From NCBI GenBank assembly GCA_051382335.1, contig JBBCAX010000148.1, positions 1 through 10,178 of the forward strand: 10,178 nucleotides of DNA. Direction: 5' to 3'. Positions 106-10,178 of this stretch are shown one piece after another. The translations under genes were made by a program, and so were the position numbers. How positions within the stretch are numbered: the first letter of the stretch is position 1; each line of letters opens with the position of its first letter. The notes below the pieces were generated by a model. It was not told where the DNA came from. It did no database searches and saw only the letters and a program-made list of their open reading frames with translations. The DNA is from Deltaproteobacteria bacterium TL4. GTDB lineage: Bacteria; SAR324; NAC60-12.

Positions 106-453
106 TTGAGCAAATTGTTCAAAGTCGAGATCTATATCACTTCTGAAAATCATTCAAATTCAAAAAACTTGATCATCAAGTTATAAGACTTAGACCAAAA
201 CTTGGTCATCAAGTATAAAGACGAATTCGATGAGCGCGCGAAAAAAGATCTCCAGTTTATGGGAACTCAGTCCGCGTTCATGCAGGATTTGGTGAAAAAT
301 GGACTTTCTTATTCTCAAATAGATACTGGACAAATTGGCTTTGAAGAGTTAAACCTTAATAACATCCTTGAACAATCGTTGTTTAATCCTCGCATTATGA
401 TTGAAGAAACGGGGATAGAAGAAATTGATGTTGTCTTTCTGGCAACTCGATAG
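106..453 (+). pseudogene. Hypothetical protein, apparently interrupted by an in-frame TAA at 184-186 (ORF track calls only 202..453)
   Basis: AGGAG at 96-100 lies 5 nt before TTG at 106, in the same frame as ORF 202..453. Translation is (M)SKLFKVEIYITSENHSNSKNLIIKL*DLDQNLVIKYKDEF... No family recognised. Confidence 0.4.
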
Positions 454-454
454 G

Positions 455-558
455 TATAGTGTTCAAGGAAAGTTTTGTCCTGGGAACGAGGGCGTCCCGC
501 CCTCCGATGAGGGCAAGATGCCCTCATTCCCGGGACAAAACTTTTCTGGACAGCTATA
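455..558. mobile_element. TA-flanked MITE-like palindromic element with CTGGGA(A/G)CG double-hairpin core
   Basis: Imperfect terminal IR TATAGTGTTCAAGGAAAGTTTTGTCC / GGACAAAACTTTTCTGGACAGCTATA. Inner hairpins GAGGGCGTCCCGCCCTC and GAGGGCAAGATGCCCTC. Related copies at 6013-6113, 6114-6212 and ~7895-7999. Confidence 0.75.
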
Positions 559-591
559 ATAAGCGAAAGATGAAATAAACAGAGGGTCCGA

Positions 592-5815: not shown

Positions 5816-6012
5816 TCTCGTGATCAAAATCTCAAATCATTCACAAAATGACTCATGCTAAATTGTCTAACAATTTTAAACAACTTTGTAAACCGACAAA
5901 ACCAAAAAACGTTAATAATTATGCTGTTTCCTTTAATTTGGGGAAGAGGCGAGCAAGGCTCCCCTTCATCCACGGTTAAGGTAAAACTTTTCCACCTGTG
6001 CAGGTAGATATC

Positions 6013-6113
6013 TAGACTTTCAGATAAGTCTTTCCTGGGAGCGCGGGTATCCTGCCCGCAAAAGCAGGCGGGACGCCTGCGCTCCCAGCCCAAAATACTT
6101 TTCTGAAACACTA
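6013..6113. mobile_element. TA-flanked MITE-like element with GGAG-type REP doublet core
   Basis: Ends TAGACTTTCAGATAAGT / ACTTTTCTGAAACACTA. Core CTGGGAGCGCGGGTATCCTGCCCGC-AAAA-GCAGGCGGGACGCCTGCGCTCCCAG. Confidence 0.75.
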
Positions 6114-6212
6114 TAGATGTCCAGAAAAGTTCTGTCTCGGGGAGGGCGTATCGCCCTCCAGTGAGGGCAAGATACCCTCGTTCCCAGGAAAAAACTTATC
6201 GGGAATACTATA
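6114..6212. mobile_element. Second TA-flanked MITE-like element abutting the previous one
   Basis: Ends TAGATGTCCAGAAAAGTT / AACTTATCGGGAATACTATA. Core GAGGGCGTATCGCCCTC and GAGGGCAAGATACCCTCGTTCCCAG, similar to 455-558. Shares the CTATAG junction with the previous element. Confidence 0.75.
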
Positions 6213-6214
6213 TT

Positions 6215-6448
6215 AAGTGAGTTCGGGATAAGCACAAAGCTCTGAAGGCTTGACCAGAACAATTGTAGCTCCGATCTTTTTGAAGGATCATATATCATTC
6301 TGAGGAGAATAACAACGAAGACTCTGGCTTTTCCACCGAAAAAGATTCTTCGTCTATGGCTCAGAATGACAATGACAGAAGTTTTAAACAACCTCCAAGC
6401 TATAAAACAAGAGGGTTTGGAAGGTATTTCCGTATCCAGAACTCACGT
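6215..6448. mobile_element. MITE with ACGTGAGTTC-type (IS982-like) termini and 6-7 bp target duplication
   Basis: Left end AAGTGAGTTCGGGATAAG. Right end reverse complement ACGTGAGTTCTGGATACG. TATATT at 6209-6214 and 6449-6454. IS982 assignment is from memory of TIR style. Confidence 0.65.
6295..6370. repeat. GTCATTCTGAG-type palindromic repeat
   Basis: TCATTCTGAG (6295-6304) / CTCAGAATGA (6360-6369), with inner ACGAAGACTCT / AGATTCTTCGT pair. Confidence 0.7.
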
Positions 6449-6462
6449 TATATTAGGTGTTA

Positions 6463-6620
6463 GCGTTTAGGTCTTAGCCGGTGATTATCTGCTTTCAGCG
6501 CAAAAGTTAAGAGCCTTGTCATCCATAAAGTGTTTTGTTGAGTTTTTCACAAAAAACATGCGTTCGTAAACGTAAAAGGGTAGGAAATCACATCAGTGCC
6601 TCCGGCTAAAAGCTAAGAGC
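6463..6620. repeat. Imperfect 19-bp inverted repeat pair, possible decayed MITE
   Basis: GCGTTTAGGTCTTAGCCGG (6463-6481) versus reverse complement of 6602-6620, GCTCTTAGCTTTTAGCCGG (15/19). No target duplication. Confidence 0.4.
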
Positions 6621-6693
6621 AACCTACCTGCACAGCTCGAAACTCAGAGATTTTGTCATTTAATAAACGCTGGATTTTAGCGGGTTTGTAGAA

Positions 6694-6940
6694 AGGGTGC
6701 CGCTTAAGCGAAGCGAGCGCACCACTCACTCAAGGTAGGGTGCCGCTTAAGCGAAGCGAGCGCACCACTCACTCAAGGTAGGGTGCCGCTTAAGCGAAGC
6801 GAGCGCACCACTCACTCAAGGTAGGGTGCCGCTTAAGCGAAGCGAGCGCACCACTCACTCAAGGTAGGGTGCCGCTTAAGCGAAGCGAGCGCACCACTCA
6901 CTCAAGGTAGGGTGCCGCTTAAGCGAAGCGAGCGCGCCAC
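6694..6940 (+). repeat. Tandem array of a 43-bp GTAG-type REP unit, 5 full copies plus 32 bp
   Basis: Unit AGGGTGCCGCTTAAGCGAAGCGAGCGCACCACTCACTCAAGGT starts at 6694, 6737, 6780, 6823, 6866 and 6909. Linkers identical. Confidence 0.95.
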
Positions 6941-6984: not shown

Positions 6985-7740
6985 TCAGAAGGTTTTGGGC
7001 GTAAAGTTGGCGGGCGTTTCAAGAGAAAAGACTTCATCATGGATGGAGGCCAGATATAGACCCGATTGCAGCACGTCCTCTCTCACGGAAGACTCGGTAT
7101 CCACATAGACAACCATTCCCCGGATTGTTTTGTCGGAAAACTCCGGAAAAAACATCCGGAAGTTTTTCAGAATCTCCAGCGTTTGGTCCAAATCCCGTTG
7201 TTCCAGACGACTTTTGATTTCAATCACATACAACTCATTCACCGTCCCATTCGTATAGGCCACCGCGTCCACTTCCATATTCTTTCCCTCTTTTCTTTTG
7301 CGGAGACGGGTCAGAAAGGTATCCATCCCAAAGCGTTCTGTCATGATTTTCGAGATGGAGGGAAACGCCATTCCTTCGGTGAAGGAACCAAACTTGTTAT
7401 TCAAGCCTCCGATATTTTTTGACAATTCTTTGACAAGACGGTCCGTTTTAGCGAATTTTTCATTGAGCTGTCGGTCGGTTTCTTTGAGCTGTCGGTCGGT
7501 TTCCGCTGTTTTTTCCTTCAGCTCACGGCTGGTTTCTTTGAGCTGTCGGTCGGTTTCCGCTGTTTTTTCCTTCAGCTCACGGTCAGTTTCTTTGAGTTGT
7601 CGGTCGGTTTCCGCTGTTTTTTCCTTCATCTCACGGCTGGTTTCCTTGAGTTGTTGGTCAGTTTCTTTGAGCTGTCGGTCGGTTTCTTTTTGGGCGATTG
7701 CCAAGCTGGCAACCAGTTCTTTGAGTTCTTGATCGGTCAT
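6985..7740 (-). CDS. Coiled-coil repeat protein with C-terminal PD-(D/E)XK nuclease-like domain (DUF3782-like)
   Basis: KETDRQL repeats, IGGLNNKFGSFTEGMAFPS, MEVDAVA...VIEIKSRL, and GLYLASIHDEVF tail typical of this family. Confidence 0.88.
   Translation of the reverse strand: MTDQELKELVASLAIAQKETDRQLKETDQQLKETSREMKEKTAETDRQLKETDRELKEKTAETDRQLKETSRELKEKTAETDRQLKETDRQLNEKFAKTDRLVKELSKNIGGLNNKFGSFTEGMAFPSISKIMTERFGMDTFLTRLRKRKEGKNMEVDAVAYTNGTVNELYVIEIKSRLEQRDLDQTLEILKNFRMFFPEFSDKTIRGMVVYVDTESSVREDVLQSGLYLASIHDEVFSLETPANFTPKTF
7466..7689 (-). repeat. Intragenic coding repeats (21-bp and 54-bp periods)
   Basis: Three 54-bp units encoding EKTAETDRQLKETxRxL(K/N), plus 21-bp KETDRQL units. Confidence 0.85.
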
Positions 7741-7894
7741 AAGCCCTTTTCAGACAAGCGTTTTTTCAAGCGGGTGTTTTATTCCATTCTGACAAGAAAC
7801 TGGACGAAGAGCAAGCGGAATTTCAAAGCAGGGCATGGTTCAAATCAGGGTGACATCTTTTCTACTTCGTTCCCCTTCAAAGCATCGGAACGAG

Positions 7895-7999
7895 TATCGA
7901 GGTCCAAATAAATTTCTGCTGGGAGCGCAGGCGTCCCGCCTGCTTTTGCGGGCAAGATGCCTGCATTCCCAGGAAAGAACTTTTCTGGAGATCGCTACA
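7895..7999. mobile_element. Degenerate MITE-like element with GGAG-type REP doublet core
   Basis: Core CTGGGAGCGCAGGCGTCCCGCCTGC-TTTT-GCGGGCAAGATGCCTGCATTCCCAG (7919-7972), an inverted near-copy of 6035-6088. Right end AACTTTTCTGGAG resembles 455-558. Boundaries approximate. Confidence 0.65.
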
Positions 8000-8095
8000 A
8001 TCCGTTCTGTTACCTGAAAATGGACATTTTTGAACCATGCCCAAAGCAGACGCGGCTGGAGCCGCAGAGGAAAGGTTACAAGGCAAAGAGCAAAG

Positions 8096-8123
8096 CGTTC
8101 CCAAACTGGAGCTTGGGAACGAG
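8096..8123. repeat. CTCGTTCCCA-type REP-like hairpin
   Basis: CGTTCCCAAACTGGAGCTTGGGAACGAG, matching 3749-3775. Confidence 0.7.
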
Positions 8124-8149
8124 TTGAAACTTAAGGTAGGGTGCCGCTT

Positions 8150-8257
8150 TTGTAAGAAAGTGGTAGAAGGGGACTACGTGCCCCTCATTTTGCCGGGCAT
8201 GTAATCCCGGCCTACCAATTACTTTCATGCTTCGTTGTGAGACTTGTCTCATGGGGG
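8150..8257. mobile_element. 108-bp structured insert splitting a GTAG REP at its centre
   Basis: Left flank GTAGGGTGCCGCTT (8136-8149) and right flank TTAAGCGAAGCGAGCGCGCCAC (8258-8279) rejoin to the REP unit with TT duplicated. Confidence 0.7.
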
Positions 8258-8293
8258 TTAAGCGAAGCGAGCGCGCCACTTAAGGTAGGGTAA

Positions 8294-8386
8294 AAGTAGG
8301 GTGCCGCTTAAGCGAAGCGAGCGCACCAGAAAGTCACCGTCCCCTTATTTGTGGTGCGCTCGCTTCGCTTAAGCGGCACCCTACTT
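8294..8386. repeat. REP doublet (REPIN-like): perfect 35-bp inverted repeat with 23-bp spacer
   Basis: AAGTAGGGTGCCGCTTAAGCGAAGCGAGCGCACCA (8294-8328) and its exact reverse complement (8352-8386). Confidence 0.92.
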
Positions 8387-8550
8387 ATGCTTATCATCTA
8401 TTCTTGAAGAGTCACCTGGATGAGTTAATTGAAAATCTCTTCGATTTTTGTTGCGGTTATTATACGTTCCAACAAGAGTCCAATTTCTTCTAAACGACAC
8501 TGATTGAGTCGACTTTGATATAAATTATACGCTTGATCTCCAAACTTTTT

Positions 8551-8711
8551 CGAGCTGTGCAGGTGGTTTGAAAATTAACCACGAAAAACACGAAAAACAC
8601 GAAAGAAATGATTTTTTAATAAATGAATTCCTCCGTGAAACCCTATTTTGCAGGTTTTCTTTCGTGTTTTTAGTGTTTTTCGTGGTTTAAAAAAGGTACC
8701 TGCACAGCTCG
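8551..8711. mobile_element. MITE with perfect 14-bp TIR CGAGCTGTGCAGGT carrying an AACCACGAAA-type palindrome
   Basis: TIRs at 8551-8564 and 8698-8711. Inner IR 8577-8608 / 8656-8687 (31/32) built of 9-bp CACGAAAAA units. Another copy of the TIR at 6626-6639. No TSD. Confidence 0.85.
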
Positions 8712-8850
8712 AAAGATTTCAACAGTTGAACCGGTTCATGATGGACCAGCGCATACAGATTCACTTGCTGTTGATCCAGTTGATGCTTTTTACGATAATT
8801 GGACGCATGACCATATAATTCTTCTAAAGACACACCGATAAACGACTCCC

Positions 8851-8997
8851 GGCTTCAGGTCTAAAATGGGACAAGCGTAGGGTGTGTTAGCGAAGAATGA
8901 GCGTAACGCACCAAACTGATGTCATGTTTTCTGGTGCGTTACGCCTTGCGGCTAACGACACCCTACAATATGACTGTCCCGGCTTAGACCGGAAGCC
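8851..8997. mobile_element. 147-bp MITE, 23-bp TIR, 8-bp TSD, carrying a GTAG REP doublet
   Basis: TSD CGACTCCC at 8843-8850 and 8998-9005. TIRs GGCTTCAGGTCTAAAATGGGACA / GGCTTCCGGTCTAAGCCGGGACA. REPs at 8877-8913 and 8932-8966. Confidence 0.92.
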
Positions 8998-9147
8998 CGA
9001 CTCCCGGTGCGATTTAAACGAAATCAGATTATGGTCCTTCAACGGTTCAAAGGGGTGAAGGTATTCAGCGGGAAGAGTGTCCTGAGGGGAAGAGGAAGTC
9101 TTACGAACCACCGTCAAATCGATCAACTGCTTTTTGAACGATAAGTC

Positions 9148-9270
9148 GGGGTTGCCTCTAAGTTCGGCCATTTTGATGGTAGCCCTGGGTTTCGTCCCAG
9201 GGGATACTGCGCACATTGTTCCTCGGGGCGAAACCCGAGGCTACCCCTGGCCGAAGTTAGACCCAACCCC
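9148..9270. mobile_element. 123-bp MITE, 23-bp TIR, 8-bp TSD, carrying a different GTAG REP doublet
   Basis: TSD GATAAGTC at 9140-9147 and 9271-9278. TIRs GGGGTTGCCTCTAAGTTCGGCCA / GGGGTTGGGTCTAACTTCGGCCA. REPs at 9179-9202 and 9221-9244. Confidence 0.92.
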
Positions 9271-9444
9271 GATAAGTCAACCTCAACTTCTGTTTCATAG
9301 CCAAACCGCTCAAACATTGGTTGAAGTATCAAGCCCATCAAACGATGCCAATCTATTTTCTTGGTCAATTGAACTCCTGATCATGCTGCTGTTTGATACA
9401 CTATTTCTTGCCAGTTTCGCCTGACGCACTGGGTGCCCTTGTTG

Positions 9445-9696
9445 TCACAATTCGTTCGTATTTACCTTCTCAGAGTCTAAATATAGGGTATCCGGACAAA
9501 TATCCTGTTCGTGAGGCCACATTATGGTACCATCCCATGCTTTTACTTGTTTAAAATAGTTTTCGTCTTTCAATTCATTAAAAACACCAAAATCAAGTAG
9601 GCACGAACAGTCGTAAATTCCCTTTTCACCATTTGAAAAAATAAGTTCTAACTTATAATCAGCGATTGGTGTCACTACAGTCACTCTTGGATTCAT
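9445..9696 (-). CDS. DUF2442 domain protein (putative antitoxin, 83 aa)
   Basis: V..V.P..DYKL.L.FSNGE, GVFNELKDENYFKQV and GTIMWPHEQDICPDTLY pattern. Starts 2 bp downstream of the DUF4160 gene. Confidence 0.88.
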   Translation of the reverse strand: MNPRVTVVTPIADYKLELIFSNGEKGIYDCSCLLDFGVFNELKDENYFKQVKAWDGTIMWPHEQDICPDTLYLDSEKVNTNEL

Positions 9697-9698
9697 GG

Positions 9699-9968
9699 CT
9701 ACCTCAAAGGTTCAATTTTATAGGGCTGTTGTCCTGAAACAGCCAGGTCCCAATCGGCTACTAACTCATCTCTATGGATTTCAATCCATGCGTGAAGAAG
9801 TTTCATTTTTGGATTAGGGATATTTCCTTCCAGAATATCTCCTTCTGGAATTGAAAGGACTACTTCGTACTCTCGATATTTAGCATGAATGTGGGGAACG
9901 TTGTGCTGTTTATTGTCCTTAAAATACAAGTACACGATGATCCCATAAAACATTGAAATTGATGGCAT
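9699..9968 (-). CDS. DUF4160 domain protein (putative toxin, 89 aa)
   Basis: MPSISMFYGIIVYLYF...HNVPHIHAKY...WIEIHRDELVADW...KIEPLR. Start placed at ATG 9968, with GAGG RBS upstream, rather than 9995. Confidence 0.9.
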   Translation of the reverse strand: MPSISMFYGIIVYLYFKDNKQHNVPHIHAKYREYEVVLSIPEGDILEGNIPNPKMKLLHAWIEIHRDELVADWDLAVSGQQPYKIEPLR

Positions 9969-10178
9969 GATGACCTCATTTTTGTTTGGATACAACTTGT
10001 TACATTTTTTAACTATTCAAGGCTATAGTCATCGTTTCGCCAATGTCCCTTCGACTTGTATCTTGTTTTAATAACAAGGAATTAGTATTTTTGTTTAAGG
10101 AACCCAAGCGTTTTGGAGGAAAATAGATCGATTCGACTTAGTGATTCAATCACGTAGCGAAGCCTAGATCGTTTTCCT

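What the first reader, a model, noticed from the sequence alone, without database searches (positions are those of the whole stretch)
8425..9368. One gene hit by three different MITEs, with the frame restored by removing element plus one TSD
Seen: deleting 9140-9270 (131 bp) and 8843-8997 (155 bp) gives an uninterrupted MTKKIDWHRLMGLILQPMFERFGYETEVEVDLS|FKKQLIDLTVVRK...HNLISFKSHRES|FIGVSLEELYGHASNYRKK...VQLLKS (123 aa), with no other stop or frameshift. The ORF track misses this gene. Inference: the insertions are recent and MITE activity is intense. A more speculative alternative is precise DNA- or RNA-level excision acting as a switch, since each element folds to bring its TSDs together.
Basis: partly seen in the sequence, partly recalled or inferred. 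Interest (0 to 1): 0.72.

Follow-up and report, generated by a model that had tools for sequence, protein, structure and literature searches.

The report
Dead gene copy, three mini-transposon hits
A spare copy of a multi-copy, likely nuclease gene carries three tiny jumping elements and has lost over half its length at the third one, so it is most likely ordinary transposon damage rather than an on/off switch.

Summary
Observation largely real; switch idea fails. E1 (9148-9270) and E2 (8851-8997) are genuine MITEs with 23-bp inverted ends and perfect 8-bp target duplications. Removing each plus one duplication gives a frame about 96% identical to an intact 347-aa paralogue in the same genome (C133). 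E3 (8551-8711) is not a clean insertion: its flanks are two different target sites and 544 nt of the gene are missing between them. Removing all three leaves 162 of 347 aa. E1 and (more weakly) E2 share ends with DUF6399 insertion sequences whose protein models as a DDE transposase; E3 shares ends with an ISKra4/ISLre2-like element in this genome. These families avoid coding DNA (2 of 47 versus 336 of 500 random sites), the opposite of what precise excision predicts. The host gene is Rpn-like (nuclease-type fold, internal ribosome site, variable four-residue repeats), with pieces on 14 contigs and one complete copy; the same sites are hit in other copies. No reads were listed. The scan already reported REP-carrying MITEs in this genome and the DUF6399 link in other genomes. 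Verdict: a recent pseudogene; interest low.

The parts
9271..9368 (-). Gene piece 1, about codons 1-33 (TTG start; includes one copy of the E1 duplication)
   Evidence: 94% aa identity to C133 residues 1-33; start codon and upstream comparison
9148..9270 (.). E1: 123-bp MITE, 23-bp imperfect inverted ends GGGG...CCCC, inner REP-like GTAG...CTAC doublet at 9179-9244; ends of DUF6399-type insertion sequences
   Evidence: the REP label is by resemblance (recalled motif)
9140..9147 (.). E1 target duplication GATAAGTC (second copy 9271-9278)
8998..9139 (-). Gene piece 2, about codons 34-80
   Evidence: 94% aa identity to C133
8851..8997 (.). E2: 147-bp MITE, 23-24-bp inverted ends GGCT...AGCC, inner REP-like doublet at 8877-8966; one end type seen before a DUF6399 ORF in a metagenome contig
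   Evidence: same element at the same site in paralogue C156
8843..8850 (.). E2 target duplication CGACTCCC (second copy 8998-9005)
8712..8842 (-). Gene piece 3, about codons 81-124, ending in E3 target site 1 (8712-8719)
   Evidence: 98% aa identity to C133; junction
8551..8711 (.). E3: 161-bp MITE with 14-bp inverted ends C...G and an inner AT-rich palindrome (8577-8687); ends of an ISKra4/ISLre2-like element; sits at a 544-nt deletion junction with no duplication
8425..8550 (-). Gene piece 4: last 41 codons and stop (DUF4351-like tail), starting with E3 target site 2 (8543-8550)
   Evidence: 93% aa identity to C133 residues 307-347; PF14261 E 8e-5 on the intact paralogue, under the cut-off

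Best explanation
This is a broken spare copy of a multi-copy gene, likely an Rpn-like nuclease, interrupted by two miniature transposons and missing 544 bases at a third, and it was likely killed recently by ordinary transposition rather than being switched by excision. Shown: element ends, 8-bp duplications for E1 and E2, family copy numbers, the intact paralogue, the missing segment, the shared ends with full-length elements. Inferred: DUF6399 proteins act in trans as the transposases of E1 and E2; an ISKra4/ISLre2-like (prokaryotic Mutator) transposase moved E3. Also inferred: the deletion arose by an adjacent deletion from one E3 end, or by recombination between two E3 copies that had inserted at two preferred sites; once the first hit made the copy useless, later hits were neutral and stayed. 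The order of the three events is not known.
For: Intact 347-aa paralogue C133; family DNA on 14 contigs with only that copy complete and uninterrupted. Missing C133 nt 375-918; 162 aa remain after removing everything. Both E3 flanks fit the family target preference AAAnnTTT: site 2 ranks 4 of 1037 8-mers in the intact gene and the window's site 1 scores higher still, as expected when a deletion ends at a transposase target (PMC9330008, passages). A 1.9-kb element on C258 has E3 ends around a broken transposase; the less broken C209 piece hits ISKra4 (E 3e-15) and ISLre2 (E 2e-13), both under cut-off. E1-type ends bound 1847-bp elements at 8 loci of a Desulfamplus genome (5 of 8 with 8-bp duplication; ORF 570 aa in 7 of 8) and a 1849-bp DUF6399 element, and flank DUF6399 fragments on six contigs of this genome. 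A DUF6399 model (pLDDT 85) best matches Hermes (E 3e-4) and ISCth4 transposases. Only 2 of 47 non-nested, duplication-flanked elements reopen 50 aa or more on both sides versus 336 of 500 random sites (P 3e-18). pN/pS 0.08.
Against: No complete transposase gene for any of the three families was found assembled in this genome. The E2-DUF6399 link rests on one end in 1 of 6 metagenome hits, and no E2-ended DUF6399 was found here. 17 of 27 paired E3 elements lack matching flanks, so rearrangement or mis-assembly at E3 is common and the deletion may be an assembly collapse. The triple is still somewhat unlikely under the non-ORF null (P 0.043). The depletion test uses a crude open-frame measure that neighbouring insertions can bias downward. 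The host's nuclease fold match is middling (Z 6.8-6.9).
Confidence: 0.85

Rival explanations
1. The deletion is an assembly artefact: the locus really holds two E3 copies in the same orientation with the 544-nt middle between them, and the assembler collapsed them. The gene would then carry four insertions and still be dead.
For: 445-contig assembly whose contigs often end inside these elements. The shortest contig kept is 1008 bp, so an orphan middle piece of about 0.5-0.9 kb would have been dropped. 17 of 27 E3 pairs have unmatched flanks.
Against: No contig holds the middle segment flanked by E3. The unmatched flanks are also what adjacent deletion gives. Other copies of the family are truncated at many other points.
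Confidence: 0.12
2. Precise DNA- or RNA-level excision of the hairpin elements switches the gene on, giving either a full protein or a 162-aa short form.
For: Each element folds so that its ends meet. E1 and E2 have perfect duplications. Removing E3 plus 8 nt happens to keep the frame. The E2 site and the E3 site are re-used in other copies.
Against: 185 codons are missing, including the last strands of the modelled nuclease-type domain, invariant R151, L165, F166, S167, T210 and the repeat tract. An in-frame junction has a 1 in 3 prior. Three removals by two unrelated transposase types would be needed. The families avoid genes. The only intragenic cases I could recognise among the 7 of 47 candidates are this gene and one Rpn-like gene with intact paralogues (read by eye). 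No intron model matches. Folding is a consequence of inverted ends.
Confidence: 0.02
3. The same-site hits in other copies are not independent insertions but were spread between paralogues by recombination or gene conversion, and some contigs may be strain variants in the bin.
For: E2 in C156 has the same orientation and differs by one base in length. C156 and C294 share downstream flank with the window. Contamination estimate 2.61%.
Against: The window and C156 differ at 21 of 366 sites, C156 sides with C133/C323 on both sides of E2, and their upstream DNA differs. C294 carries a different, transposase-bearing element at the E3 site on a tail 1 of 126 nt from C133 and 8 of 126 from the window.
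Confidence: 0.3

Closest known systems
Bacterial MITEs that inactivate genes and pile up in pseudogenes (review PMC10969869, passages; Thiomargarita hupL and YhgA-like genes, PMC4853749, passages)
   Same: Short non-coding elements with inverted ends and target duplications, mostly intergenic, clustered and nested, disrupting dispensable genes; the Thiomargarita paper also reports a MITE inside a YhgA/Rpn-type gene.
   Different: Different end sequences; here autonomous partners can be named for the ends, and the cores are REP-like doublets.
Prokaryotic Mutator-like elements, ISKra4 and ISLre2 families (PMC3942029, passages)
   Same: Terminal C, 8-bp duplication, transposase similarity for the element that shares E3's ends.
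   Different: Conserved end is about 14 bp (paper: 18-39 bp); HMM scores are far under cut-off; target is an AT-rich palindrome rather than a promoter position; E3 itself encodes nothing.
DUF6399 (PF19936) insertion sequences
   Same: 23-bp GG...CC ends and 8-bp duplication shared with E1 (strong) and E2 (one contig); protein models as a DDE transposase with invariant D160, D214/D234 and E485 (catalytic roles inferred).
   Different: Pfam lists it as unknown function; the term is in 0 papers of the searched library; ISfinder could not be searched. The scan noted this link in at least 9 genomes.
Rpn/YhgA toxin-antitoxin genes-within-genes (PMC10400941, abstract and passages)
   Same: N-terminal restriction-endonuclease-like fold, internal GGAG six bases before a conserved Met, four-residue repeats whose number varies (6-15), DUF4351-like tail, many copies.
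   Different: Not recognised by the Rpn HMMs (TIGR01784 in 1 of 28 members, E 5.5e-4); repeats start about 26 residues after the internal Met (paper: 8-20); activity untested.
MITE and IS erosion of redundant DGR loci in Thiohalocapsa (PMC10907252, passages)
   Same: Redundant copies degraded by MITE-like sequences matching remote IS ends; paralogues C133, C156 and C323 follow DGR-like DNA.
   Different: The window's copy has no DGR upstream; the gene hit is a downstream nuclease-like gene, not a core DGR part.

Membership tests
MITE (E1, E2) | Terminal inverted repeats | tested here: met
   23-24-bp imperfect ends
MITE (E1, E2) | Target-site duplication and empty site | tested here: met
   Perfect 8-bp duplications; 26 of 39 E1 and 19 of 27 E2 paired elements have one at 0-1 mismatch; empty sites in paralogues
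MITE (E1, E2) | Short, multicopy, no transposase | tested here: met
   123 and 147 bp
MITE (E1) | Autonomous element with the same ends | tested here: met
   DUF6399 elements in other genomes and fragments in G000
MITE (E2) | Autonomous element with the same ends | tested here: inconclusive
   One end before a DUF6399 ORF in 1 of 6 metagenome hits; none found in G000
MITE (E3) | Target-site duplication at this locus | tested here: not met
   Flanks AACTTTTT and AAAGATTT come from two sites; 10 of 27 family pairs elsewhere do have 8-bp duplications
MITE (E3) | Inverted ends, multicopy, autonomous partner | tested here: met
ISKra4/ISLre2 (partner of E3) | Transposase HMM over cut-off | tested here: inconclusive
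   Partial protein: 56 bits versus 205, 51 versus 200; no Pfam hit on C258 pieces
ISKra4/ISLre2 (partner of E3) | Terminal C and 8-9-bp duplication | tested here: met
   definition from PMC3942029
DDE transposase (DUF6399 protein) | RNase H-like fold with acidic triad | tested here: inconclusive
   Foldseek: Hermes E 3e-4, ISCth4 E 5e-3, TM about 0.25-0.3, high rmsd; invariant acidic residues; activity not testable
Rpn/YhgA (host gene) | TIGR01784 / PF04754 / PF12784 match | tested here: not met
   None on C133; TIGR01784 in 1 of 28 relatives, weak; neither Pfam in 28
Rpn/YhgA (host gene) | PD-(D/E)XK-type N-terminal fold | tested here: inconclusive
   Model residues 7-165 match McrBC, NucS-type, Can2 and AF1548 chains at Z 6.2-6.9, rmsd 3.3-3.8, 105-118 aligned; invariant E29, D40, K76, E80
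Rpn/YhgA (host gene) | Internal ribosome site and start for a small C-terminal protein | tested here: inconclusive
   GGAG 6 nt before M208, which is 90% or more conserved; translation not testable; deleted in the window copy
Rpn/YhgA (host gene) | Variable four-residue repeats | tested here: met
   15, 14, 11, 6, 13, 12 units in six paralogues
Rpn/YhgA (host gene) | Toxic DNase blocked by the small protein | not testable with these tools
   Needs expression
Self-splicing intron / IStron | Ribozyme core | tested here: not met
   20 Rfam matches up to E 1 in 8200-9450, all hairpin miRNA models under their gathering scores
Excision-controlled gene | Removal restores a complete gene | tested here: not met
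   162 of 347 aa
Excision-controlled gene | Empty-site reads at this locus | not testable with these tools
   No run was listed

The most novel reading that the evidence does not exclude
This Rpn-like family is a selected sink for miniature transposons: elements of an insertion-sequence family not named in the searched papers (DUF6399) and of a Mutator-like family land repeatedly on the same bases in separate copies, and such hits are kept because they silence surplus copies of a self-toxic nuclease, which would make MITEs a way of pruning toxin-antitoxin copy number.
Probability: 0.12. Interest if true: 0.5.

Novelty: new member of a known kind. Interest (0 to 1): 0.24.

Why it matters
As it stands it is a tidy example of MITE damage to a redundant gene, and a caution that an open frame after removing hairpin elements does not show a switch: here the open frame hides a 185-codon loss. 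Its useful by-products are named partners for three MITE families, including further support that DUF6399 is a transposase, and an Rpn-like family that current HMMs miss. A true excision switch would have been a new form of bacterial gene control, but the evidence is against it.

Tried and rejected
Sequencing runs for 7700-10178: none was listed, so no reads were laid; this is no evidence either way.

Looked for partners among ISL3, IS1595 and IS256 families in G000: one ISL3 fragment and one IS1595 fragment without these ends next to them as read by eye, and no IS256 match. PF06782 found one unrelated ISKra4 fragment. PF01797 gave 12 matches, 11 over cut-off; I did not link any to the inner REP-like doublets.

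Unpaired E1 and E2 ends at 8 sites led to no transposase. The first E2 pattern found nothing in metagenomes. A looser one found 6 stretches, and 1 of 44 family genomes.

PDB sequence search with the host alignment: nothing significant. Foldseek on the host model: no match at E 0.001 or better.

Considered that MITE hits convert toxin genes into orphan antitoxin genes. C156 and C183 keep the internal start and tail, but the window, C69, C250 and C339 do not, so there is no pattern.

A first clustering count included off-by-one duplicates and was redone; only the second is used.

Paper searches: DUF6399, 0 papers; MITE + precise excision + bacteria + phase variation + insertion sequence, 1 unrelated paper, listing only. 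Supplements were not read; the element tables of PMC3942029 may list the E3 partner.

Full report
Observation. The window is contig C148 of a 6.6-Mb, 445-contig genome. The 122-aa part aligns end to end at 95.9% and 95.1% with uninterrupted paralogues on C323 and C133, so the reading is real. The start is TTG, not the ATG of the paralogues, and the upstream DNA differs. All three elements fold as long hairpins (z -6.7, -8.7, -11.1), which is what inverted ends give.

Anatomy. Family comparison fixes the ends. E1 is 9148-9270 (123 bp) and E2 is 8851-8997 (147 bp), each with 23-24-bp inverted ends and a perfect 8-bp duplication. Each encloses a GTAG...CTAC doublet that resembles REP pairs (label from memory; earlier notes on this genome say the same). 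E3 is 8551-8711 (161 bp). After removing duplicates there are 39 E1-type, 27 E2-type and 27 E3-type paired elements, of which 26, 19 and 10 have a duplication at 0-1 mismatch.

The third element is different. The intact C133 gene is 347 codons. The window matches it up to nt 374 and again from nt 919; the 544 nt between are absent and E3 stands in their place, flanked by two different 8-mers. E3 ends prefer AAAnnTTT targets. In a matrix built from 99 flanks outside this gene family, the 3' site ranks 4 of 1037 8-mers of the intact gene and the window's 5' site scores higher (7.96 versus 6.57). That is the pattern of an adjacent deletion, or of recombination between two copies; the review PMC9330008 (passages) describes deletions that start at an element end and stop at a target site. 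Removing E1, E2 and E3 plus 8 nt leaves an open frame, because the two sites are 552 nt apart, but it is 162 aa. It lacks the last strands of the modelled domain, five invariant residues and the repeat tract. An assembly collapse of two E3 copies cannot be excluded, since contigs under 1 kb were dropped.

Who moves them. The E1 end pattern occurs in 41 loci of other genomes. It bounds 1847-bp elements at 8 loci of a Desulfamplus genome, 5 of 8 with an 8-bp duplication, and a 1849-bp element whose ORF is DUF6399 (E 5e-42). In G000, related ends (5-6 mismatches of 23 to the window's ends) flank DUF6399 fragments on six contigs. The E2 end precedes a DUF6399 ORF in 1 of 6 metagenome hits; no E2-ended partner was found in G000. 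A model of the DUF6399 protein (pLDDT 85) best matches Hermes and ISCth4 transposases, with modest scores. DUF6399 is in 0 papers of the searched library, but the scan's notes report this link in at least 9 genomes; I had found it before looking. E3 ends bound a 1.9-kb element on C258 whose transposase is itself broken by two insertions. A cleaner piece on C209 hits ISKra4 and ISLre2 models under cut-off, and terminal C with 8-bp repeats fits PMC3942029 (passages).

The host gene. Relatives of 300-350 aa exist in other genomes. The model's residues 7-165 resemble restriction-endonuclease-type folds at middling Z (6.2-6.9), with invariant E29, D40, K76, E80. There is a GGAG six bases before conserved M208, 6-15 four-residue repeats across six paralogues and a weak DUF4351 match. 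This is the layout of Rpn toxin-antitoxin genes (PMC10400941, abstract and passages), but the Rpn HMMs do not recognise the family, so I call it Rpn-like and not a member. Family DNA lies on 14 contigs; only C133 is complete and uninterrupted. C156 has E2 at the same site on a different haplotype (21 of 366 differences). C236 and C294 have E3-type ends at the same 3' site, C294 with a transposase-bearing element, and C250 has E3 near nt 175. Independent insertion and gene conversion are not separated.

Switch or damage. If these elements were removed precisely, genes would tolerate them. Instead, 2 of 47 non-nested, duplication-flanked elements reopen 50 aa or more on both sides, against 336 of 500 random positions; looser thresholds give 7 of 47 versus 388 and 3 of 47 versus 391. 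Eight nested elements were dropped before this count. Reading the seven by eye, only this gene (twice) and one Rpn-like gene with intact paralogues looked like real coding insertions. Rfam shows no intron. The triple is the only one among 85 elements: P 0.008 under uniform placement, 0.043 in non-ORF DNA, consistent with pile-up in neutral DNA as described in PMC10969869 (passages), and with MITEs in a YhgA-type gene in PMC4853749 (passages). The copy still shows purifying selection (4 non-synonymous, 14 synonymous changes; pN/pS 0.08) and E1 is 1-3 nt from 7 of 15 sister copies, so the damage is recent. No sequencing run was listed, so excision was not tested in reads.

Verdict. The best reading (0.85) is a recently killed redundant copy of an Rpn-like gene with two clean MITE insertions and one element-bounded deletion. 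The excision switch is unlikely (0.02). Novelty: new member of a known kind. Interest 0.24.

Noticed in passing
G000:C133:36652-37752; C156:1572-2354; C323:745-960: The intact paralogue and C156 lie directly after a reverse-transcriptase ORF and an Asn-rich template-repeat-like stretch, as in diversity-generating retroelements (label from recalled motifs); C323 shares the nearer part of that upstream DNA. RT matches occur on 13 contigs.
   Followed up: partly
window 9445-9995: DhiT-like (DUF4160; NF048015 96.5 bits, cut-off 100) and DUF2442 pair directly upstream of the broken gene, same strand.
   Followed up: partly
window 6694-6940 and 8294-8386: Six tandem 43-bp REP-like units and an inverted doublet of the same family; the doublet gives 120 matches covering 80% or more in the genome.
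   Followed up: no
window 5992-6639: A second pair of E3-type ends encloses about 650 bp containing several other repeat families, with flanks AAAACTTT and AAACTCAG: a possible composite element.
   Followed up: no
G000:C4, C46, C87, C176, C207, C270, C271, C324: An E2-type 151-bp element is nested at one fixed site inside E3 elements, making 301-310-bp composites that have spread as a unit.
   Followed up: partly
window 10021-10043; G000:C291, C33, C96, C110: A further DUF6399 subfamily with ends beginning GGC(C/T)ATAG; one such end lies in the window.
   Followed up: no
window 6985-7740: 251-aa ORF with 7- and 11-residue coiled-coil repeats and a weak DUF3782 match; C294 holds a 272-aa paralogue next to another copy of the gene tail.
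   Followed up: no
L040, L041, L070, L043, L079: MITEs with the E1 ends in other organisms enclose unrelated palindromic cores; nearly the same 132-bp element occurs in an archaeal and a Bacteroidales assembly.
   Followed up: no
G000:C258:627-2530: The transposase of the E3 partner is interrupted by two other repeat elements, one of them in frame and of the family seen at window 445-560.
   Followed up: partly
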